From Escherichia coli (GTDB lineage: Bacteria > Pseudomonadota > Gammaproteobacteria > Enterobacterales > Enterobacteriaceae), in NCBI RefSeq assembly GCF_016026235.1, contig NZ_CP065613.1: a stretch of DNA of 64,000 bases; one strand, written 5' to 3'. This document shows positions 30,880 through 58,400 of this stretch, piece by piece. The stretch's first letter is position 1. Each line of letters starts with the position of its first letter. The notes under the pieces are model-generated. The model had not been told where the DNA came from, did no database searches, and worked only from the letters and a program-made list of their open reading frames with translations. The position numbers and the translations under genes were made by a program.

Positions 30880-31242
30880 GGGGCTGATTCTGGATTCGAC
30901 GGGATTTGCGAAACCCAAGGTGCATGCCGAGGGGCGGTTGGCCTCGTAAAAAGCCGCAAAAAATAGTCGCAAACGACGAAAACTACGCTTTAGCAGCTTA
31001 ATAACCTGCTTAGAGCCCTCTCTCCCTAGCCTCCGCTCTTAGGACGGGGATCAAGAGAGGTCAAACCCAAAAGAGATCGCGTGGAAGCCCTGCCTGGGGT
31101 TGAAGCGTTAAAACTTAATCAGGCTAGTTTGTTAGTGGCGTGTCCGTCCGCAGCTGGCAAGCGAATGTAAAGACTGACTAAGCATGTAGTACCGAGGACG
31201 TAGGAATTTCGGACGCGGGTTCAACTCCCGCCAGCTCCACCA
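30880..31242 (+). ncRNA. ssrA: tmRNA (SsrA), 363 nt
   Basis: Begins GGGGCTGATTCTGGATTCGACGGGATTTGCG, contains the tag-encoding segment GCAAACGACGAAAACTACGCTTTAGCAGCTTAA (ANDENYALAA) and ends with the tRNA-like GGTTCAACTCCCGCCAGCTCCACCA. Confidence 0.97.
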
Positions 31243-48406: not shown

Positions 48407-49645
48407 TCATGATAATGTAGCATGCAGAAGCCATGATAATAGCAGCGCTTCATAGTAGCCCTCCTGAGCCCCAAAGACCTTTATTGCCTGTTGCATGTAC
48501 CATTCACACAGCAACCAGGCATTTTCGACATATTCTTTTTTTATCGCGCATTCACCTTCAGTATAGTAACTCAGCAGCGCGGCCAGACGTGCAACATTAT
48601 TCGGAAGTTTGGATGCAAAATCATTCATGTTTGCATATTCCCTGTCGGGGCCAATACTGCTTTCTATTTCATCGTGAATTTCTTTCCACGCCGCCAAGGC
48701 TGAGGGCTCGAATGATAAACATGTCTGATGCCCAGTCCCGTGTTGAGAAGCACTTTTTTCTATCAGTTCATTCATACGTTGGTAGAAGCGATTAAGATTC
48801 TCCAGCTTACCTGACTGAGGGGAAGATAGACGACTAATAAAACGCTGGCCCTGTGTCGATAATTTCGCATCAATATACAAGATAAAACAGCGTGCAAACA
48901 AACCACTCCCGCGTGCATGTTCGCCCTTGCGTTTTAAAAAATCGTAAAATATTGCTTTTTGTACCATGACTAACAACGTAATACGTCCATTCTTAATCGT
49001 AAAACTTGGCCCTGTTTTCCGATTAACATGAAAACTTTCATCATCCCATATGGAGTTCATAAATCCCAAATCACTCATAGTCCGTCTGCTAAGTATATTA
49101 GCCCCCTCATCAGTTATTAGTCCTGTTTGTGGCGAGTGGGTATACATTTCAAACTGCAGGGCTTCAGGGGTGACATTATTATAAATATACCTTTTGGCTT
49201 TCGGTTGTACTGGCTTTTCAGCAGATAACTGTTCTAACTGCCGTGAAAGTTTATCTGTACATAGTCCTTTCATAGTGTCTTTATCAATGCATTTCAGAAG
49301 TGCATTTTCTTTCTTGCTCCATATTTTAGACTGGACCTCATGTTCTTTCTTCTGCTTTTCATACTGGAGTAATACACGCAGATCATGCTCATGAAAAGGT
49401 TTTAACAGCAGTTTTTCCACCGCTGTTTTTCTCTCGCCAGAATCTGCTATCACGAATGAATACAATGACACCGGAGACTTCATGGTGTCTGTTATTTTTA
49501 CATTAATCAGGCTCTGACACGCCAGTGATAATCCACTCAGCAATGTTAATGCAATCATTTCCCCCGGGGCTCGTGTGCATTCCTCAATATCAAAAATAGT
49601 TTCAAGCAATGACGAGGGGAAAGCGTTAAATGGAAACTCCTGCAT
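48407..49645 (-). CDS. hypothetical prophage protein, 412 aa (probably the replication/primase-associated partner of the YfjJ-like gene)
   Basis: Long ORF MQEFPFNAFPSSLLETIFDIEECTRAPGEMIALTLLSGLSLACQ...; co-oriented and adjacent to the YfjJ-like gene. Confidence 0.6.
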   Translation of the reverse strand: MQEFPFNAFPSSLLETIFDIEECTRAPGEMIALTLLSGLSLACQSLINVKITDTMKSPVSLYSFVIADSGERKTAVEKLLLKPFHEHDLRVLLQYEKQKKEHEVQSKIWSKKENALLKCIDKDTMKGLCTDKLSRQLEQLSAEKPVQPKAKRYIYNNVTPEALQFEMYTHSPQTGLITDEGANILSRRTMSDLGFMNSIWDDESFHVNRKTGPSFTIKNGRITLLVMVQKAIFYDFLKRKGEHARGSGLFARCFILYIDAKLSTQGQRFISRLSSPQSGKLENLNRFYQRMNELIEKSASQHGTGHQTCLSFEPSALAAWKEIHDEIESSIGPDREYANMNDFASKLPNNVARLAALLSYYTEGECAIKKEYVENAWLLCEWYMQQAIKVFGAQEGYYEALLLSWLLHATLS

Positions 49646-49932
49646 GACAATACCTCCAGAAAATGTTGTTTTGATAATTGAAAACTAATCTGGAATGCGA
49701 TCGCAAGTCAATATGAAAAACTGATATTTAGTCTAGTCAGACAGCGTTGGACTAAATTAGTCAAGTGGCAGCTTCTGGTATTTTCATTCGCCTGTGCTTT
49801 CTTTATAAAAACACAGACGAGTAATGTCAGTACGGAGATATACTGCCAGGTAATATGATTTAAATAATTCTCAGATATATATAACCTCAGTGAATTTCCA
49901 CCCGTTTTAATCCAACAGGTCATCCCCACCGG

Positions 49933-50847
49933 ATGGCCTTTTTTCATTCAGAGGCCGATATGAAACATCCCTCGGGTTATACCCTTATCCGTCGCCATCT
50001 GCGGCGTTATCCACACGCGCTACGCCAGCATTTGCTGCAGGAGCTCAACCGACTCGTTACGTATGAACCGGTGATTGGCATCATGGGAAAAACCGGCGTC
50101 GGCAAATCCTCGCTGTGCAATGCACTGTTCCGGAGCGAAGTCTGTACTGTCAATGCCGTGGAAGCCTGCACCCGTCAGCCACAGCGTGTCCGGCTGCGCT
50201 TCGGCAGCCATTATCTGACGCTGGTCGACTTGCCCGGAGTGGGCGAGTCTGTTACCCGCGACGGTGAATACCGTGAGCTGTATCGTGACCTCATGCCACA
50301 GCTCGATATGGTGCTGTGGGTGCTCAAGGCCGATGACCGCGCATTTGCGGTGGAAGAGCAATTTTATCAGGACGTGTTCGCGCAGTTCAGAGGACCGATA
50401 CCGCCAGTGCTGTGGATACTCAACCAAGTGGACAAAACCGAACCTGCCGAGCAGTGGCGATGGTTGTCGGCTCAACCCTCGGCGTTACAGGCGGAGCGTA
50501 TTGCGCAGAAACGGCAGGCTGTGGCACGTCAGTTGCAGATAGCAGAAATAGATATTCTGCCAGTCTCTGTCCGGGGGCGTTACCGGCTGCCGCGCCTGGT
50601 GGAGACCATGATTACCCGCCTCCCAAAGCAAGCCCGCAGTCCACTTGTGCCTCATCTGCAGAACCGGTATCGCACTGATACCGTTATCAATACCGCCAGC
50701 AGCAGCTTTGGCGATGCCGTGGTAGAGGTGATTGATAACATCATTGACCTCGCACCGCTGCCGCAGGTGGCCCGCACAGCACTGCATGCGGTGACCCACA
50801 CCGTCGCCCGCGCGGCAGGCTCCCTGTGGGGATTTTTCTTCGGCTAG
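49933..50847 (+). CDS. yfjP: YfjP/YkfA/YeeP-family GTPase (Era-like small GTPase of CP4-type prophages)
   Basis: G1 motif GIMGKTGVGKSS, G3 DLPGVGES; alternative start at MKHPSGYT (49960). Confidence 0.85.
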   Translation: MAFFHSEADMKHPSGYTLIRRHLRRYPHALRQHLLQELNRLVTYEPVIGIMGKTGVGKSSLCNALFRSEVCTVNAVEACTRQPQRVRLRFGSHYLTLVDLPGVGESVTRDGEYRELYRDLMPQLDMVLWVLKADDRAFAVEEQFYQDVFAQFRGPIPPVLWILNQVDKTEPAEQWRWLSAQPSALQAERIAQKRQAVARQLQIAEIDILPVSVRGRYRLPRLVETMITRLPKQARSPLVPHLQNRYRTDTVINTASSSFGDAVVEVIDNIIDLAPLPQVARTALHAVTHTVARAAGSLWGFFFG

Positions 50848-51059
50848 TCACTTCGCTTTCGATGAGCGGCCTTGCCGTTTTCGATAAGTTTCTTTGTTTC
50901 ATTACGATCGATTTTGTCGATCGAGCCGATCGATATTCATCGTTGTACATGATTAATCCGGTAGCCACATAATCCACAGGGCATTATGTGATTTGTTAAT
51001 TTTAACCATCAAAATCAATGCGATGTATCGCAGGGATTGTCACGCATTAAGGAAAGTAT

Positions 51060-51218
51060 ATGCCGTTAATTCTGTTATGGGGCGGTCTGGCCCTGTTGCT
51101 GGGTATCGTGGCTTCCGCTAATGGACGCTCGTTCTGGGGCTGGTTCATTCTCGGTCTGATTATCGACCCGATACTGGCGGGGCTGCTGTACTGGCTTATT
51201 GCAAAGGACCGCACATGA
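51060..51218 (+). CDS. small hydrophobic membrane peptide (52 aa), unannotated-type small ORF
   Basis: ATG..TGA: MPLILLWGGLALLLGIVASANGRSFWGWFILGLIIDPILAGLLYWLIAKDRT; two predicted TM helices; below the ORF-track size cutoff. Confidence 0.4.
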   Translation: MPLILLWGGLALLLGIVASANGRSFWGWFILGLIIDPILAGLLYWLIAKDRT

Positions 51219-51343
51219 AAACATTTCTGCGTCTGTTCGGTAAGTTCACCCGCTGGTACATCACCCTCATTATCTTTATGGCCTGCCTACTGCTCATTAT
51301 CACCACCCTGGGCAATATGGCTGGCTTCTGACAGGACACTCCA

Positions 51344-51808
51344 ATGAAAAATAAACTGGTTATTTCATTTTTACTGGCTTCAGTGCTGACGCCTTCTGTC
51401 TCGCATGCGTTTGGCAACCCTGATAGCTGGGTAAGTGGCTATGCGCAGGGAACGTCTGAATACACCATCCTCGGTAAAGGGCAATCACAACTTTATCTGG
51501 CCTGCGATAGTTCCGGCTCACAGCCAGCGACCATTATCTTCACTGACGTGAACGGCCAACAGGTCAGGATGGACAGCGGCCAGACACTTGCCATGAGAAT
51601 TGATAACGCTGAAGAAGTGAATATCAGCGAAAGCGAGTCTCATGTGGGATCTGACAATGTGATGTGGGCATGGAACAAATTACGCACCGGCAAACGTGTT
51701 GTGGTTTCAGGTAGCGGGGTAAAACCTGCCACTTTCACTTTAGCGGGGGCTGCTGCAGTTCTTCCTGCCTTCGGTGACAACGGCTGTGTGCCCGGATTTG
51801 CACTGTAG
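51344..51808 (+). CDS. secreted hypothetical protein (signal peptide)
   Basis: 154 aa, MKNKLVISFLLASVLTPSVSHAFG signal sequence. Confidence 0.7.
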   Translation: MKNKLVISFLLASVLTPSVSHAFGNPDSWVSGYAQGTSEYTILGKGQSQLYLACDSSGSQPATIIFTDVNGQQVRMDSGQTLAMRIDNAEEVNISESESHVGSDNVMWAWNKLRTGKRVVVSGSGVKPATFTLAGAAAVLPAFGDNGCVPGFAL

Positions 51809-51842
51809 CTCTGCCTCACTCTTACAGATTAAAGGAAATTTA

Positions 51843-52184
51843 ATGAAGAAAATTATTACAGTCGCAGCACTCAGTCTGCTGTCATTTTCTTCGCTGGCCG
51901 GGTCTTCACCTGTTAGCGTCAGCGTCAGCCCGGGAAGCTACAGTCACTATTCATCGATTCGGGTTACATCAAAAGTCGATTCGATTGTGATTAAACAACT
52001 CATTGTCAACAGGGGAAACTGCCAGGATGCAGAATTCGCCAGCCCCTGGAAACCGGTACGTCTGGGATTTGGCGGTGCTGTATCCCATGAATTTACCGGC
52101 AAGGGGCTGATGGTTCCCTGTAATGTACTGGAAGTAGTTGTCCAGACAAGCGAAGGCGCATGGCAGTTTGATTTTGACAGCTGA
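51843..52184 (+). CDS. secreted hypothetical protein (signal peptide)
   Basis: Start taken at MKKIITVAALSLLSFSSLAGSSPVSVS (113 aa); the track ORF 51774.. extends upstream in frame. Confidence 0.7.
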   Translation: MKKIITVAALSLLSFSSLAGSSPVSVSVSPGSYSHYSSIRVTSKVDSIVIKQLIVNRGNCQDAEFASPWKPVRLGFGGAVSHEFTGKGLMVPCNVLEVVVQTSEGAWQFDFDS

Positions 52185-52275
52185 CACCGCGCGCTTTTCC
52201 ACCTTTCTTTTCTATCTGAACGCCCTGCTCAAACGAGCAGGGCGTTTTCTTTTGCCTCTCTTAAAGGAATTACTT

Positions 52276-53097
52276 ATGAGATTAGCCAGCCGCTTTGGCC
52301 GTATAAACCAGATACGCCGTGACCGTCCTCTGACCCATGAAGAGCTGATGAGTCATGTTCCCAGTGTATTCGGGAGTGACAAACATGAATCGCGTTCAGA
52401 CCGTTACACCTACATTCCGACCATCACCATCCTCGAAAGCCTGCAGCGCGAGGGTTTTCAGCCGTTCTTTGCCTGCCAGACAAAGGTTCGGGACCAGAGC
52501 AAACGGGAGCACACCAAACACATGCTTCGCCTGCGTCGCGCCGGGCAGCTAAACGGTCATCAGGTACCGGAAATCATTTTACTCAACAGCCATGACGGCT
52601 CATCAAGCTACCAGATGCTGCCGGGGTTGTTTCGTGGCGTCTGTACTAACGGTCTGGTCTGCGGTCAGTCATTCGGAGAGGTGCGGGTACCACATAAAGG
52701 TAATGTCGTTGAGAAGGTAATTGAAGGGGCTTACGAAGTTCTCGGGGTATTTGACTGGGTGGATGAAAAGCGTGATGCCATGGCGTCACTTTTACTTCCG
52801 CCACCAGCACAGCACGCTCTGGCGAATGCCGCGCTGAAATATCGCTTTGGTGAGGACCACCAGCCGGTCACGGTATCGCAGTTGCTGACCTCACGTCGCC
52901 GGGAGGATTGCAGCGATGACCTGTGGACCGTCTACCAGCGCGTGCAGGAGAACCTGATGAAAGGGGGATTGTCAGGACGAACCGCACAGGGGAAAAGCAG
53001 TCGCACCCGTGCCGTTACCGGTATTAATGGCGACGTGAAGCTCAATCGTGCCCTGTGGGTAATGGCAGAGAATATGCTCGAGTTTTTCGGGCGTTAA
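52276..53097 (+). CDS. yfjQ: DUF932-family protein (YafZ/YfjQ-like)
   Basis: Start at MRLASRFGRINQIRRDRPLTHEELMSHVPSVFGSDKHESRSDRYTYIPTI (273 aa), typical of CP4-type prophage DUF932 proteins. Confidence 0.8.
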   Translation: MRLASRFGRINQIRRDRPLTHEELMSHVPSVFGSDKHESRSDRYTYIPTITILESLQREGFQPFFACQTKVRDQSKREHTKHMLRLRRAGQLNGHQVPEIILLNSHDGSSSYQMLPGLFRGVCTNGLVCGQSFGEVRVPHKGNVVEKVIEGAYEVLGVFDWVDEKRDAMASLLLPPPAQHALANAALKYRFGEDHQPVTVSQLLTSRRREDCSDDLWTVYQRVQENLMKGGLSGRTAQGKSSRTRAVTGINGDVKLNRALWVMAENMLEFFGR

Positions 53098-53127
53098 ACA
53101 ACGATACAAGCATAAGGAGATAGTTTC

Positions 53128-53571
53128 ATGGATACACAAAACCTTCAGTTCGCTGAGCAGACAGCAATTACTGCCTCTGTGGTACCTGACGAGTTACGCA
53201 TCGGCTTCTGGCCACAGCACTTTGGCTCCATCCCGCAATGGATAACCCTTGAGCCCAGAATTTTTGCCTGGATGGACCGTCTGTGTACCGATTATCACGG
53301 TGGTATCTGGCACTTTTCGACGCTCAGCAACGGCGGCGCTTTTATGGCCCCTGAGTCAGAGCAGGATGAGAAGTGGAAATTGTTCAACAGTATGAATGGC
53401 AACGGCGCGGAACTTACTGGTGAAGCTGCAGGGATAGTCGCCTGTCTGATGGTATACAGCCATCATGCCTGCCGTATCGAATGTGACGCGATGACAGAGC
53501 ACTATTATCGCTTACGAGACTTCGCGCTAAACCATCCAGAGTGCAGTGCCATTATGTATCTAATCGACTGA
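53128..53571 (+). CDS. yfjX: antirestriction protein (KlcA/ArdB-like; YfjX family)
   Basis: 147 aa MDTQNLQFAEQTAITASVVPDELRIGFWPQHFGSIPQWITLEP... Confidence 0.8.
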   Translation: MDTQNLQFAEQTAITASVVPDELRIGFWPQHFGSIPQWITLEPRIFAWMDRLCTDYHGGIWHFSTLSNGGAFMAPESEQDEKWKLFNSMNGNGAELTGEAAGIVACLMVYSHHACRIECDAMTEHYYRLRDFALNHPECSAIMYLID

Positions 53572-55460: not shown

Positions 55461-58400
55461 TCAGAACGACCAGTTCACACCAGCCACCGCGTTCCACGGG
55501 GATTCCACATCGGCACCGTTGCTATACCCCACCCCGAGATGCCCGCTTAACGTACTGCTGAATGAGGCTTTAATACCTGCCTGGTATATTCCACGTCTGC
55601 CCGACAAATCATTGACGAAATTACCGTCATTATTCACCTTCACCCGGTTATCATCGACAAATTCTTTGCGCACAGCCGCCTTCAGCCACGGCTCAACTTC
55701 CATACCGTTTCCCAGACGCATGTTGTAACTCAGCGTTGCGCCCAGTTCACGATATATACTGCGGGTATCGACTGATTTCGATTTCATGCCATTGGATAAA
55801 TGATATTCGGGGTTATCAGCGGTGAACCCCGTTAACGATGCATACGGCGTCAGGTTCCAGTTACCATCGGTAAATCGCATCCCGGTTTCAATGTGCCCCC
55901 CCAGCCCGTTGCTGTGATAACTGCCGTTGGCGGCTCCACCGCTGCTCATTTTACCGGCTACGTTACTTTCAAAACGGTTCAGCTTCACGATACCGTCCAG
56001 ATAGAAACCACTTTCATGTTCCCAACTGGCATAGCCGCCCAGAGAATAACTGCCCACACTGCCATGTCCTCCACGATCAAAACCGATATGTGAATGGGAA
56101 TAACCCATAAAAGCGCCCAGCGTCGCAATCCCCTCAGGAATATCATTACGGCTGTCGATCCCCACTGTCATTCCGGTCAGCGTCTGCTCAAACCCGGCAC
56201 CCGCATCGGTGGTGACATTATTACGGGTGTTATACGTCGCCCCCCAGACATTATTGTTGTGTGGACTCGCTTTCATTATGTTCAACCGCTCGCGAATACT
56301 GTTTAGCTCAGCATCAAATACCAACGGTAATGTTGCAGCCATATTGAGTACGGCTGCCGTAGAAGGCGTGATGCGTTTCTCCGGAACGGGTGTCGGCGTT
56401 GGATCGGGAGTCGGGTCTGGTTTCGGATCCGGTTTTGGGTCTGGTTTTGGATCCGGCTTCGGATTTGGGTTGGGATTTGGGTTGGGATCCGGGTTGGGTT
56501 TGACATCATTGGTCAGGTTCCAGTTGCTGTTGCCGTCGCTTTTCAGGACATACTCATAGGTCCCAAGATCAACGAAACCGCCGGTATTGCCCAGCGTAAA
56601 CGAAGCATCCCCTCCCCCTGTTTTCACCAGCGTCATCGCATCGTCAGACTGAGGGCTGACGCCGGTATCCTGAACAAAGATTTTAAAATTACCAGTGGCG
56701 TTGTTGTTGACGACCAGTTGATCGCCCCGGGAGCCAGCAACGTTGGTATGCAGGTAGAAATTACCGCTGCCGGAAAGTTCATTGGTTGTCAGCGTATTGT
56801 AGATACCGTTAGTTGTGGCAGGCGCTGCTGTTTGTGCTGATAAATAAACATCACCGTCGTTGAGTAGCAAACTGTTTACTCTATATTCGCAGTTGCTGGT
56901 ACCTGCACAGGAATTATTGCTGTTAAGCCAGACACTGCCCCGGCTGGCAGCCGTCAGGTCGGCAAGCGTGGTATCGACGCCATTTCCCAGAGTTAATGTC
57001 GCGCTATCGGTAATCCGGACCGCCCCTTCAAGTTTTACTGGCGTAACATTATCCCGTGGCGTGATTAACGACAGGCTTCCTGTCGCGCCACTGACCGATG
57101 CATCCGCCAGCGTACCTGCGTAGACGATTGCCGTCCCGCCAGCGACCTGTAGATCTTCTGCCCGGGCCAGAGCCTGAAACTCATCTTTTGACCGCCCAAG
57201 GGTATATTGCCCACCAGAGTTAACCTTTGTGGCGGAGTCCTGACCCAGGTTTTGCATTGCACCACCCTTGCCAACCGTGGAGTCATGGGCTTCGGTACCT
57301 GCTAATACCAATAAATTACCACCATTTTCCAGCAACATATTGGTCGCTAAATTTCCGGCAATGGAAAAGGTGCCGTACTGGTGAGTACCGCTGATTTCAA
57401 TACCGTTAGCCGTGCTCGTCTGGAGAGCGGCACCGCTGTTCTGGACGATATCTGTCGCTTTGCCATTATCGTTGACTGTCAGCGTTCCGCCTTCATTGAT
57501 CGTTGTTTTTATTGCTTCTCCGTTAGCTGAAACTGTTTGTATTCCGCCGTCGTTAATTGTTGTCTCATTCGCCACACCCTCGACGATTTGTTCACCGCCG
57601 GTGAGCGTCGTGCCTGTCGCAGTGGCTTTTGTTTTGACGATCTCCCGTCCGCCCGTATTGACCTGTGTTTTGTCAGAAGAGGTGTCTGACTCCACGGTTA
57701 ACACGCCGCCATTTGCCAGCTGGATATTGTTCGCCGCATCCTGCTCAATGCTGAACGCGACGCCATCAGCGCGTGTCCCTGTGACCCGCGTCGCCCTGGT
57801 GGTTGCAACCAACGCGCCCTGGCTACTCTGCTGTATCCCCGTTGCGCTGCCTTTCTCCCGCACATCGAGTGTGCCGCCGTCATTAAGCACCGAGTTTTCA
57901 GCCAGACCGCCCTCATTAACTACCTGTGAACCCCCATTAATAATGGAACCTTCCGCTGTCCCGTTTGCCATAATTTGTTGTAGGCCAGAGACGATATCGG
58001 TATTGATTGCCTTACCATAATTCTGAACGGTTTGCGTGCCACCATTGATGTGTGTTTTCTCTGTTGACCCACCATCAACAATTTGTTCACCACTTTCGAT
58101 ATTTGCTTCAGTGGCTAAACCATATACCGTTTGCTTGCCACCTTTGATATTTGCTTTATCAGAAGTGGCACTGGCATATATTGTTTGGGTGCCAGCACTA
58201 TTGAGTACAGTGCCAACATCTTTTCCATAAACATCCATTTTGCCGTTGGCATTAATAATCGTGTCAACTGCCCGGGAACCAGTGACGACTGTTAATGAGC
58301 CAGCGTTTTCCAGCACTACATTTTTAGCTTCTGAATTCCTGATGTAGAAAGCATCACCATAACTGTTGGTTCCTTCGATAAGTGTTCCGGAGGTCGTGGA

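What the first reader, a model, noticed from the sequence alone, without database searches (positions are those of the whole stretch)
51060..51352. Two overlapping small hydrophobic ORFs between the GTPase gene and the secreted-protein genes
A 52-codon ORF (51060..51218) encodes a peptide with two predicted transmembrane segments. A second 45-codon ORF (51215..51352, MKTFLRLFGKFTRWYITLIIFMACLLLII...) begins at an ATG overlapping the first one's stop (ACATGA). Small membrane peptides in prophage regions are often toxins of TA-like modules or regulators, and they fall below routine annotation thresholds.
Basis: seen in the sequence. Interest (0 to 1): 0.35.

Follow-up and report, generated by a model that had tools for sequence, protein, structure and literature searches.

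The report
Two coupled small membrane-protein genes
Two tiny overlapping genes in an E. coli genomic island are real, conserved membrane-protein genes of unknown function; they open a four-gene cell-envelope operon that sits behind a conserved cluster of three DNA-methylation sites, and nothing found supports a toxin-antitoxin pair.

Summary
Both ORFs exist. ORF1 is 51060-51218 (52 aa, two hydrophobic helices). ORF2 starts at 51215 inside ACATGA as described, but ends at 51331, so it has 38 codons, not 45. Both are genuine genes. The pair recurs in Escherichia, Mixta, Serratia, Providencia and Pectobacterium, with stop/start overlap or a 1-nt gap and dN/dS of 0.04-0.21. ORF1 is already annotated in RefSeq as a hypothetical protein (WP_001128372.1). 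ORF2 is absent from RefSeq annotation but present in GenBank submissions.

ORF1 is a stand-alone copy of a widespread, unnamed two-helix membrane module: 1113 database clusters, often fused to cytoplasmic zinc ribbons. ORF2 is a single-pass partner seen only in Enterobacterales.

The two genes lead a discrete operon: ORF1, ORF2, a YfjT-family periplasmic protein, an Ig-like periplasmic protein, then a terminator. The operon lies in a CP4-57-type island at ssrA.

About 130-155 nt upstream lies a block of three GATC sites with 13 and 9 nt spacing. It is invariant across eight genera and resembles the agn43/gtr Dam-OxyR operators.

No antisense RNA, known toxin family or defence family was found. 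Function is unknown. My best reading is a small membrane effector pair carried as island cargo, with predicted methylation-sensitive expression. Interest is modest.

The parts
49933..50847 (+). YfjP/YeeP-type GTPase gene, the conserved upstream neighbour
   Evidence: Pfam MMR_HSR1 E=1.1e-14. RefSeq annotates it as 'GTPase family protein'. It lies upstream of the GATC block in 41 of 43 metagenome/viral loci.
50906..50931 (.). Block of three Dam sites, GATCGATTTTGTCGATCGAGCCGATC, with 13 and 9 nt spacing; predicted methylation-sensitive operator
   Evidence: Unique in the window, with 0.01 matches expected by chance. The three sites and their spacing are invariant in 16 loci from 8 genera while the flanks diverge. 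The 13-nt GATC pair matches the OxyR half-site layout of gtr and agn43. It aligns to agn43 GATC-II/III.
50918..50926 (.). 9-bp unit CGATCGAGC, present as 1, 2 or 3 copies in different E. coli strains; each extra copy adds a GATC
   Evidence: Alignment of four E. coli copies and GATC positions.
50944..50973 (+). Predicted sigma-70 promoter (-35 TGTACA, -10 CATAAT) immediately downstream of the GATC block
   Evidence: Consensus scan. The matching positions are conserved as TTATCC/TTGTAC and TATAGAAT/TATAAAAT/CATAAT in 42 distinct orthologous sequences. No transcript data.
51019..51032 (.). Palindrome TGCGATGTATCGCA in the predicted 5' leader
   Evidence: Conserved in the Escherichia, Providencia, Mixta and Serratia lineages and in islands with other cargo. 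The leader has no unusual RNA stability, z = -0.11.
51049..51053 (+). Shine-Dalgarno AAGGA for ORF1, 6 nt before the ATG
   Evidence: Read from the sequence.
51060..51218 (+). ORF1: 52-aa protein with two hydrophobic helices and the motif A..NGRSFWxWFxLGxIIDPILA..Y
   Evidence: RefSeq WP_001128372.1. 38-69 homologues, none with a Pfam domain. dN/dS 0.04-0.17. PHROG 9201, E=1.1e-8.
51204..51208 (+). Shine-Dalgarno AAGGA for ORF2, embedded in the Lys-Asp codons of ORF1, 6 nt before ATG 51215
   Evidence: Read from the sequence.
51215..51331 (+). ORF2: 38-aa single-pass membrane peptide with four K/R in the first 13 residues and one hydrophobic helix at about 14-32; its start overlaps the ORF1 stop (ATGA)
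   Evidence: The 38-aa frame is conserved in five genera. dN/dS 0.05-0.21. Called as a gene on other contigs.
51344..51808 (+). Third cistron: exported YfjT-family protein (154 aa)
51843..52184 (+). Fourth cistron: exported 113-aa protein with an Ig-like beta-sandwich fold and invariant NRG.C...C
52218..52247 (+). Intrinsic terminator (13-bp stem followed by a T run) that closes the four-gene unit before the DUF932 gene
   Evidence: The DUF932 CDS starts at 52276, by transfer of the RefSeq annotation.

Best explanation
ORF1 and ORF2 are two genuine, translationally coupled small inner-membrane protein genes. ORF1 (52 aa) is a stand-alone copy of a widespread two-helix membrane hairpin module. 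ORF2 (38 aa) is a single-pass peptide, predicted N-in/C-out, that in Enterobacterales is almost always encoded right at the ORF1 stop. Together they probably form a small membrane complex. They are the first two cistrons of a discrete four-gene envelope cassette (ORF1, ORF2, YfjT-family periplasmic protein, Ig-like periplasmic protein, terminator). That cassette fills the variable cargo slot after the GTPase gene in a CP4-57-type island integrated at ssrA. Transcription is predicted to start from a conserved sigma-70 promoter placed just after three invariant Dam (GATC) sites. Expression is therefore predicted to be methylation-sensitive and possibly phase-variable, as for agn43, gtr and opvAB, with OxyR the leading candidate binding protein. 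SHOWN: the ORFs, their conservation under purifying selection, the coupling geometry, the operon boundaries, the family relationships, and the invariance of the GATC block. INFERRED: membrane topology, complex formation, promoter use, Dam/OxyR control, and the effector role. I take the effector role to be modulation of an envelope or membrane target for the benefit of the island (for example exclusion of phage or other elements) rather than cell killing.
For: Coding: the 52-aa and 38-aa frames are kept in Escherichia, Mixta, Serratia, Providencia and Pectobacterium. Synonymous sites are near saturation (pS 0.49-1.0) while pN is 0.04-0.23, giving dN/dS 0.04-0.21. Coupling: the junction is ATGA, TGATG or TAATATG in different genera, with an AAGGA Shine-Dalgarno inside the end of ORF1. 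Partnership: Citrobacter carries a diverged 38-aa peptide and Providencia alcalifaciens/burhodogranariea a different 31-aa cationic single-helix peptide at the same place. Both ORFs are disrupted together in independent lineages while the downstream genes stay intact. Module: a profile of ORF1 finds 1113 clusters. Of 40 longer relatives examined, 19 carry zinc ribbons and others carry Ank, HIRAN or SHOCT domains C-terminal to the hairpin, which argues for a cytoplasmic C-terminus. Autonomy: ORF1 also occurs alone, in one lineage as a monocistronic unit followed directly by a terminator, in related RadC/AlpA/YfjI-type islands of Vibrio, Aeromonas and other lineages. Operon: gaps of only 12 and 34 nt precede the next two genes, and a 13-bp-stem terminator lies at 52218-52247. 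Regulation: the three GATC sites are invariant in 16 loci from 8 genera. The block always lies about 60 nt after the GTPase stop and about 150 nt before whichever cassette follows, in 43 further loci. The 13-nt GATC pair is the geometry of OxyR half-sites in gtr (PMC2909390). The best local alignment to the K-12 yeeP-flu spacer places it on agn43 GATC-II/III; 1 of 300 shuffles reaches that score. Precedent: opvAB is a 34-aa membrane peptide plus a two-TM protein, 1 nt apart, behind four GATC sites and under Dam/OxyR control (PMC3350482).
Against: There are no expression, methylation or phenotype data. The promoter rests on a consensus match whose count is no higher than in shuffled sequence (3 found, 3.0 expected) plus conservation. 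The OxyR half-site match is only 7 of 10 positions, and the repeated CGATCGA could bind another protein. The link between the peptides and the periplasmic proteins is not obligatory, because the same promoter block drives cassettes that lack ORF1/ORF2 and ORF1 occurs alone elsewhere. Eight of about 18 assessable ORF1/ORF2-type loci in metagenomes carry decayed copies. The pair is therefore dispensable and possibly costly, which is also what one would expect of a mildly toxic membrane peptide. The 'GRS' loop carries the only mid-sequence positive charge, so the topology is not settled.
Confidence: 0.5

Rival explanations
1. Toxin of a TA-like module: one or both peptides are membrane-depolarising toxins of type I kind, held in check by an antisense RNA or by the partner peptide, and they stabilise the island.
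For: Both are small, very hydrophobic and carried on a mobile island. Overlapping, coupled reading frames recall mok/hok. Repeated inactivation in nature fits a costly gene. ORF1 can be a solitary gene next to a divergent Xre-type regulator.
Against: No Rfam hit to any TA RNA in 49500-53500. No antisense promoter or terminator stands out, and the leader is not unusually structured (z = -0.11). No toxin family matches in Pfam, NCBIfam or PADLOC. The genes have good Shine-Dalgarno sites and are co-transcribed with two exported proteins. The ORF1 module serves as an ordinary membrane anchor in more than 1000 protein clusters. The island already carries a CbtA/CbeA TA pair.
Confidence: 0.12
2. Stand-alone exclusion or defence factor: the peptide pair, or ORF1 alone, sits in the inner membrane and blocks DNA entry or a receptor or transport step used by phages, colicins or competing elements, independently of the two periplasmic proteins. 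This is a specific version of the effector role in the best explanation.
For: ORF1 occurs alone in related islands. A PHROG family of phage proteins matches it at E=1.1e-8. The predicted phase-variable control parallels gtr and opvAB, which change phage susceptibility. The cargo slot holds only envelope proteins.
Against: No PADLOC match. No tblastn match in 50,697 phage records. No phenotype data of any kind.
Confidence: 0.2
3. Dedicated accessory subunits of the cassette: the two peptides anchor, insert or stabilise the YfjT-family and Ig-like periplasmic proteins and have no role without them.
For: Tight operon with 12-nt and 34-nt gaps. The same four-gene order is kept in Escherichia, Mixta, Serratia, Providencia and Leclercia. 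K-12 CP4-57 has an analogous small membrane protein, YpjK, directly before yfjS-yfjT.
Against: YfjT-like and Ig-like genes occur behind the same promoter without ORF1/ORF2 (ORF1-less cassettes) and stay intact where ORF1/ORF2 have decayed. ORF1 occurs without them in Vibrio, Aeromonas and other lineages.
Confidence: 0.13
4. Regulatory upstream ORFs: the act of translating them, not their products, tunes expression of the downstream secreted-protein genes.
For: Position at the 5' end of the operon and overlapping or closely spaced cistrons.
Against: Strong amino-acid-level constraint across genera (dN/dS 0.04-0.21). An invariant sequence motif shared with distant relatives in Vibrio and Burkholderia. 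ORF1 exists as a monocistronic gene elsewhere.
Confidence: 0.04

Closest known systems
opvAB (STM2209-STM2208) of Salmonella enterica
   Same: Horizontally acquired two-gene membrane unit that starts with a tiny hydrophobic peptide (34 aa). The cistrons are 1 nt apart. A cluster of GATC sites lies upstream of the promoter, and the locus shows Dam/OxyR-dependent phase variation that alters the envelope (PMC3350482).
   Different: No sequence similarity. OpvB is a 221-aa Wzz-like protein, whereas here the partner is a 52-aa hairpin and two periplasmic proteins follow. There are three GATC sites rather than four. Regulation here is only predicted.
agn43 (flu) Dam/OxyR switch downstream of the GTPase pseudogene yeeP in CP4-44
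   Same: Same position in a related island: GTPase gene, then three GATC sites, then surface or envelope cargo. The CGATCG-N7-CGATCGA core is shared and the two spacers align best there. The 13-nt GATC pair is shared.
   Different: In agn43 the GATC sites lie downstream of the promoter. Here the conserved promoter-like elements lie downstream of the GATC sites, a layout closer to gtr and opvAB. The third-site spacing differs (19 and 13 nt versus 13 and 9 nt). The cargo is unrelated.
ypjK-yfjS-yfjT of E. coli K-12 CP4-57
   Same: Same island type and integration site (ssrA). A small hydrophobic protein gene overlaps the start of genes for exported proteins, including a YfjT-family member.
   Different: YpjK (78 aa, Gly/Ala-rich) shows no recognisable similarity to ORF1 or ORF2 by inspection. 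K-12 has the lipoprotein YfjS instead of the Ig-like protein. The K-12 yfjP-yfjQ spacer lacks the GATC block.
Type I toxin peptides (Hok, Ldr, TisB, Ibs, ShoB, Zor)
   Same: Size, hydrophobicity and residence on mobile DNA. Coupled overlapping frames are superficially like mok/hok.
   Different: No antisense RNA, no structured leader, no family match. The genes are operonic with exported proteins. ORF1 has a strongly conserved non-hydrophobic motif (NGRSFW, IDP) shared with ordinary membrane-anchor domains.
Unnamed two-helix N-terminal anchor of bacterial zinc-ribbon membrane proteins, and PHROG 9201
   Same: ORF1 matches these by profile, with a shared pattern such as A..[KR]GRSG.GWFLLAL.ISPLLAG.
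   Different: ORF1 is the module alone, with a 5-residue tail. No member has a described function, and no Pfam or NCBIfam model covers the module.
Small single-pass regulators of membrane proteins such as MgrB
   Same: ORF2 has the same build: a cationic N-terminus, one helix and a short periplasmic tail. There is a weak local match to MgrB around LACLLL.
   Different: The NCBIfam score is 13.5 bits against a cut-off of 40 (E=0.06). ORF2 lacks the periplasmic Cys-containing domain of MgrB.

Membership tests
Type I toxin-antitoxin toxin | Small hydrophobic membrane peptide | tested here: met
   ORF1 is 52 aa with mean Kyte-Doolittle hydropathy 1.25; ORF2 is 38 aa with 1.26.
Type I toxin-antitoxin toxin | Cognate antisense or adjacent small RNA antitoxin | tested here: not met
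   No Rfam match to any TA RNA at E<=1 in 49500-53500. The only minus-strand promoter-like site points away from the ORFs, and site counts equal the shuffled expectation. A novel RNA cannot be excluded without RNA-seq.
Type I toxin-antitoxin toxin | Self-contained locus with a structured, translation-blocking leader | tested here: not met
   First cistrons of a four-gene operon with exposed AAGGA Shine-Dalgarno sites. Leader fold z = -0.11.
Type I toxin-antitoxin toxin | Growth arrest or depolarisation on expression | not testable with these tools
   Needs an induction experiment.
Dam/OxyR epigenetic phase-variation switch (agn43, gtr, opvAB class) | Cluster of three or more GATC sites in the regulatory region | tested here: met
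   GATC at 50906, 50919 and 50928. The pattern is unique in 64 kb, with 0.01 expected.
Dam/OxyR epigenetic phase-variation switch (agn43, gtr, opvAB class) | The GATC sites are conserved while the flanks drift | tested here: met
   Sites and 13/9-nt spacing are identical in 16 loci from 8 genera. See also the consensus of 42 distinct sequences, noting that 43 of those loci were retrieved with the block itself as the query.
Dam/OxyR epigenetic phase-variation switch (agn43, gtr, opvAB class) | GATC pair 13 nt apart inside a sequence resembling the OxyR half-site ATAGnTnnnAnCTAT | tested here: inconclusive
   The spacing is met, as in gtr at -110/-97 and -46/-33. ATCGATTTTGTCGAT matches 7 of 10 positions, against 8 of 10 for agn43. 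No clear second half-site was found.
Dam/OxyR epigenetic phase-variation switch (agn43, gtr, opvAB class) | OxyR binding blocked by methylation; alternative methylation patterns; ON and OFF subpopulations | not testable with these tools
   Needs EMSA, methylome data and single-cell reporters.
YpjK family (K-12 CP4-57 small membrane protein) | Sequence similarity to YpjK | tested here: not met
   Translated YpjK shares no motif with ORF1 or ORF2 by inspection. It was not retrieved by either ORF1 search.
ORF1 family (unnamed; PHROG 9201) | About 50 aa with two helices and the motif A..NGRSFWxWFxLGxIIDPILA | tested here: met
   Alignment of 33 members with invariant A18, S24, F25, W28, I35, D36, P37 and A40. 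PHROG 9201 E=1.1e-8.
MgrB (NF007635) | Score at or above the curated cut-off of 40 bits | tested here: not met
   13.5 bits, E=0.06, covering only the helix.
Holin/antiholin pair | Adjacent endolysin or spanin genes and a highly charged C-terminal tail | tested here: not met
   The neighbours are a GTPase, two exported proteins and a DUF932 protein. The tails are KDRT and GNMAGF.

The most novel reading that the evidence does not exclude
The invariant CGATCGA-repeat block after the island GTPase gene is a portable Dam-methylation epigenetic switch, related to the agn43 operator. It would make a whole family of mosaic envelope cassettes phase-variable across Enterobacterales, with switching frequency tuned by the 9-bp repeat copy number. 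Within the cassette type that carries them, the ORF1-ORF2 peptide pair would be a new two-peptide membrane effector that changes envelope properties such as phage or colicin susceptibility in the ON subpopulation.
Probability: 0.2. Interest if true: 0.65.

Novelty: new member of a known kind. Interest (0 to 1): 0.38.

Why it matters
Small membrane proteins remain under-annotated and mostly uncharacterised, and here one of the two is missing from RefSeq annotation. This pair comes with unusually clean comparative evidence. There is purifying selection across genera, a conserved coupled junction, joint decay in some lineages, and a link to a very large unnamed two-helix anchor module. It is therefore a tractable entry point for that module. 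The more consequential lead lies upstream. A three-GATC block, invariant over eight genera, precedes interchangeable envelope cassettes at the same position where related islands carry the agn43 switch. If it is methylation-sensitive, many Enterobacterales islands would encode bistable surface or envelope traits that standard annotation does not reveal.

Tried and rejected
- **Family scans.** Pfam and NCBIfam scans of both peptides gave nothing above threshold. The MgrB hit for ORF2 (E=0.06) and the Stx1B hit for the 113-aa protein (E=0.027) are similarities in a helix or signal peptide only and were dismissed.
- **PLDc_N.** From memory I suspected a resemblance of ORF1 to the PLDc_N domain. 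The Pfam scan gave no hit at E<=1, so I dropped it.
- **Defence and phage libraries.** PADLOC gave no hit for either peptide or for the two exported proteins. tblastn of ORF1 against 50,697 phage records gave no match.
- **RNA families.** An Rfam E-value scan of 49500-53500 gave only two chance-level hits. One is simply the operon terminator.
- **YpjK.** K-12 YpjK was tested as a possible homologue and is unrelated.
- **ORF2 homologue search.** I used exact-cluster look-up and locus extraction instead.
- **The 113-aa protein.** The homologue search returned only close relatives, so the AF2 alignments were built from extracted loci.
- **Literature.** Searches for YfjT/YpjK, YfjP/YeeP/YkfA and the GATC-block sequence found nothing relevant.
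- **Lipoprotein reading of ORF2.** I considered ORF2 as a lipoprotein signal peptide because of FMAC. I rejected it because the hydrophobic run continues uninterrupted past the Cys and the Citrobacter counterpart lacks the Cys.
- **Not attempted.** A structure prediction of an ORF1-ORF2 complex was not run; both prediction jobs went to the periplasmic proteins.
Full report
**Observation.**
The window sequence and the mechanical ORF list confirm ORF1 at 51060-51218. It has 52 codons and encodes MPLILLWGGLALLLGIVASANGRSFWGWFILGLIIDPILAGLLYWLIAKDRT. Its stop is TGA 51329-51331, however. ORF2 therefore has 38 codons (MKTFLRLFGKFTRWYITLIIFMACLLLIITTLGNMAGF), not 45. Hydropathy shows two hydrophobic stretches in ORF1 (about 1-19 and 25-47), separated by the polar turn ANGRS. 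ORF2 has one hydrophobic stretch (about 14-32) after a tail with four K/R residues. Both ORFs have an AAGGA Shine-Dalgarno sequence 6 nt before the ATG. The one for ORF2 lies in the Lys-Asp codons of ORF1.

**Setting.**
The window carries tmRNA (ssrA) at 30880-31242. The region matches RefSeq E. coli chromosomes annotated as follows:
- YfjI-family protein
- GTPase-family protein
- hypothetical protein of 52 aa (WP_001128372.1, which is ORF1)
- two hypothetical proteins
- DUF932 protein
- antirestriction protein
- RadC
- DUF987 protein
- YeeU/CbeA antitoxin and CbtA toxin
- ypjA autotransporter

This is a CP4-57-type island at the CP4-57 site. ORF2 is not annotated in any of the four RefSeq records I opened. 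Only 12 of 5426 complete E. coli genomes match this stretch, and 9 of them cover most of it. Those copies are almost identical, so they say nothing about selection.

**Are the ORFs genes?**
Searches with ORF1 found 38 homologues, and 69 with a profile. They come from Klebsiella, Enterobacter, Providencia, Pectobacterium, Kluyvera, Citrobacter, Aeromonas, Vibrio and Burkholderia. Most are 50-52 aa; the longer ones are N-terminal extensions, frameshifted products or fusions. None carries a Pfam domain. I fetched DNA around homologues and read the sequence after each ORF1 stop:
- **38-aa ORF2 orthologue** in Escherichia, Mixta and Serratia, with an ATGA overlap.
- **38-aa ORF2 orthologue** in Providencia, with a TGATG overlap.
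- **38-aa ORF2 orthologue** in Pectobacterium, with TAATATG (a 1-nt gap).
- **Diverged 38-aa peptide** in Citrobacter and Pseudocitrobacter, with the same charge pattern, 8 nt after the stop.
- **Different 31-aa cationic single-helix peptide** in P. burhodogranariea and P. alcalifaciens.
- **No such peptide** in Aeromonas.

Pairwise Nei-Gojobori estimates between Escherichia, Mixta, Providencia and Pectobacterium give pS of 0.49-1.0 and pN of 0.04-0.23. Where dS is calculable, dN/dS is 0.04-0.17 for ORF1 and 0.05-0.21 for ORF2. Both frames are therefore protein-coding and under purifying selection. The exact ORF2 sequence is already in public collections on 763 contigs, named 'hypothetical protein' or 'membrane protein'. 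ORF1 is on at least 1000 contigs.

**What ORF1 is.**
A profile of 33 family members was searched against 1.84 billion representative proteins. It found 1113 clusters at E<=1e-3, of which 18 were at E<=1e-10. Many hits are longer proteins in which the same two-helix module is N-terminal. Of 40 such proteins, 19 carry Zn_ribbon_3 and 13 carry DZR. Others carry ankyrin, HIRAN or SHOCT domains. These are typically cytoplasmic domains, so the C-terminus of the hairpin is probably cytoplasmic; this is an inference. No Pfam or NCBIfam model covers the module. PHROG 9201, of unknown function, matches at E=1.1e-8. ORF1 is thus the module on its own, with a strongly conserved polar signature: NGRSFW in the turn and IDP inside helix 2.

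**Operon and cassette.**
ORF2 is followed after 12 nt by a 154-aa exported protein of the YfjT family (PF27224 on orthologues). After a further 34 nt comes a 113-aa exported protein. A 13-bp-stem terminator follows at 52218-52247, ahead of the DUF932 gene.

AlphaFold2 models gave these results:

Neither model assigns a function. K-12 CP4-57 has an analogous arrangement, ypjK-yfjS-yfjT, but YpjK is unrelated in sequence.

**The upstream region.**
The 212-nt spacer after the GTPase gene holds GATC at 50906, 50919 and 50928, within GATCGATTTTGTCGATCGAGCCGATC. This pattern is unique in the window, with 0.01 matches expected by chance.

In 16 orthologous loci from eight genera the three sites and their 13 and 9 nt spacing are identical, while the flanks diverge. 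The genera are Escherichia, Providencia, Pectobacterium, Mixta, Serratia, Citrobacter, Pseudocitrobacter and Leclercia.

E. coli strains differ only in having 1, 2 or 3 copies of the 9-bp unit CGATCGAGC, and each extra copy adds a GATC.

Just downstream lie conserved promoter-like elements: TTGTAC/TTATCC, a 16-19 nt spacer, then CATAAT/TATAGAAT/TATAAAAT.

I then scanned viral and metagenome contigs for the block itself and found 43 more loci. In 41 of them the block lies about 60 nt after a GTPase gene, and it always lies about 150 nt before a cassette of envelope proteins. The cassettes fall into these types:
- **Type A, 19 loci:** ORF1, ORF2, YfjT-like, 113-aa protein.
- **Type B, 13 loci:** a 133-aa relative of the 113-aa protein, then YfjT-like.
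- **Type C, 7 loci:** the 133-aa-type protein, a 75-aa membrane protein, then a 278-aa exported protein.
- **Type D, 1 locus:** YfjT-like followed by a 113-aa-type protein.
- **Unassignable, 3 loci.**

The same cargo variants occur in E. coli genomes. Because the block was the search query, this set shows what follows the block, not how invariant the block is.

**Comparison with known switches.**
A GATC pair 13 nt apart is the arrangement inside each OxyR half-site of the gtr switch, where the pairs sit at -110/-97 and -46/-33 (PMC2909390). It is also the arrangement of agn43 GATC-II/III. The half-site-like sequence here matches 7 of 10 consensus positions, against 8 of 10 for agn43.

In K-12 the agn43 switch lies in the same relative place, after the GTPase pseudogene yeeP. 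The best local alignment of the two spacers puts the window's first two GATC sites on agn43 GATC-II/III, and the conserved CGATAAG on GATC-I. Only 1 of 300 shuffles reaches that score.

I therefore predict methylation-sensitive, possibly phase-variable transcription. The binding protein is not established; OxyR is the best guess.

The closest functional precedent for a tiny membrane peptide gene pair under such control is Salmonella opvAB (PMC3350482).

**Loss and autonomy.**
Among type-A loci with enough sequence, 10 keep both ORFs intact and 8 carry decayed copies:
- L034 has a stop in ORF1 and a frameshift in ORF2.
- L037, L044 and L065 have a deletion inside ORF1 and a frameshift in ORF2.
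- L039, L066 and L073 have a frameshifted 84-aa product with substitutions in the invariant motif, and the ORF2 start is lost or prolines appear in the helix.
- L055 has a stop in ORF1.

In each of those loci where the held sequence extends far enough, the YfjT-like and Ig-like genes remain intact. The two small genes thus tend to be lost together, and they are not needed to keep the downstream genes.

Conversely, ORF1 homologues in Vibrio and in an uncultured lineage (P0052) sit alone in related islands. Those islands carry RadC, DUF2787, AlpA, YagK/YfjJ and DUF3987 genes, and ORF1 lies next to a divergent Xre-type regulator gene. In the P0052 lineage an intrinsic terminator follows directly. 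The Burkholderia homologue also lacks an ORF2-like ORF, but its neighbours show no such island markers. ORF1 is therefore an autonomous unit, and ORF2 is an Enterobacterales add-on.

**Interpretation.**
The toxin reading has only generic support: size, hydrophobicity, residence on a mobile element and frequent decay. Its specific hallmarks are missing. There is no antisense RNA, structured leader or family match.

The regulatory-uORF reading is excluded by the amino-acid-level constraint.

The 'dedicated subunit of the periplasmic proteins' reading is weakened by the free recombination of the cassette modules.

I favour a small two-peptide inner-membrane effector carried as island cargo. It would be expressed with other envelope proteins from a promoter that is predicted to be Dam-sensitive. 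The molecular target is unknown.

**Verdict.**
The TA idea is unsupported. Both sequences are already in databases as hypothetical proteins, so novelty is limited. The conserved GATC block and the mosaic cassettes behind it are the more interesting lead.

Noticed in passing
window 50906-50931 (with conserved CGATAAG at 50882-50888): Three Dam sites with 13 and 9 nt spacing, invariant across eight genera. The block always lies between an island GTPase gene and a variable envelope cassette. It aligns to the agn43 operator of K-12.
   Followed up: yes
window 50918-50926: The 9-bp unit CGATCGAGC is present once here but two or three times in other E. coli strains, giving 4 or 5 GATC sites. This could be a tuning knob for a methylation switch.
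   Followed up: partly
window 50966-50990: Inverted repeat CACATAAT-N9-ATTATGTG overlaps the predicted -10 hexamer. Other lineages have a different palindrome (ATCCCTCAGGGAT) at the same place, which suggests an operator at the transcription start.
   Followed up: no
window 51019-51032: Palindrome TGCGATGTATCGCA in the predicted leader. It is conserved as AAATCAATGCGATGnATCGCAG in most lineages, including islands with other cargo, and is absent in Pectobacterium and Citrobacter.
   Followed up: partly
window 51843-52184; loci L005, L019, L025, L032: The 113-aa exported protein belongs to an unnamed family (113-135 aa) with invariant NRG.C...C and a predicted Ig-like beta-sandwich fold. A member occurs in every assignable cassette type behind the GATC block. 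A relative precedes ORF1 in Aeromonas.
   Followed up: partly
loci L005 4658-4885 and 5188-6024; L019 4303-5136: Other cassette modules are a 75-aa multi-helix membrane protein and a 277/278-aa exported Cys-rich protein. These are shuffled with the YfjT-like and Ig-like genes between islands.
   Followed up: partly
proteins P0036, P0037; locus L030 4001-4273: Natural ORF1-ORF2 fusion products. The Leclercia NCTC13032 copy and a Citrobacter freundii protein (86 aa) are frameshift fusions. A 52-aa product arises from a deletion between the short repeats GCTGGTnCAT in the two ORFs.
   Followed up: partly
locus L017 5254-7962: In Providencia alcalifaciens an ORF1 homologue with a 31-aa partner lies about 1 kb upstream of Hcp-like and VgrG-like (type VI secretion) genes. 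This is a different context from the GTPase islands.
   Followed up: no
window 55461-60176 (- strand): A 1571-aa autotransporter ORF (ypjA/EhaD-like) ends the island. It converges on the CbtA toxin gene.
   Followed up: no
loci L013 657-1220, L025 4925-5488, L076 4165-4665: In Aeromonas and Vibrio islands, ORF1 homologues lie one or two genes upstream of an LRAT/NlpC-P60-like protein. In Aeromonas that protein has a hydrophobic C-terminus and is followed by DUF2787 genes.
   Followed up: no
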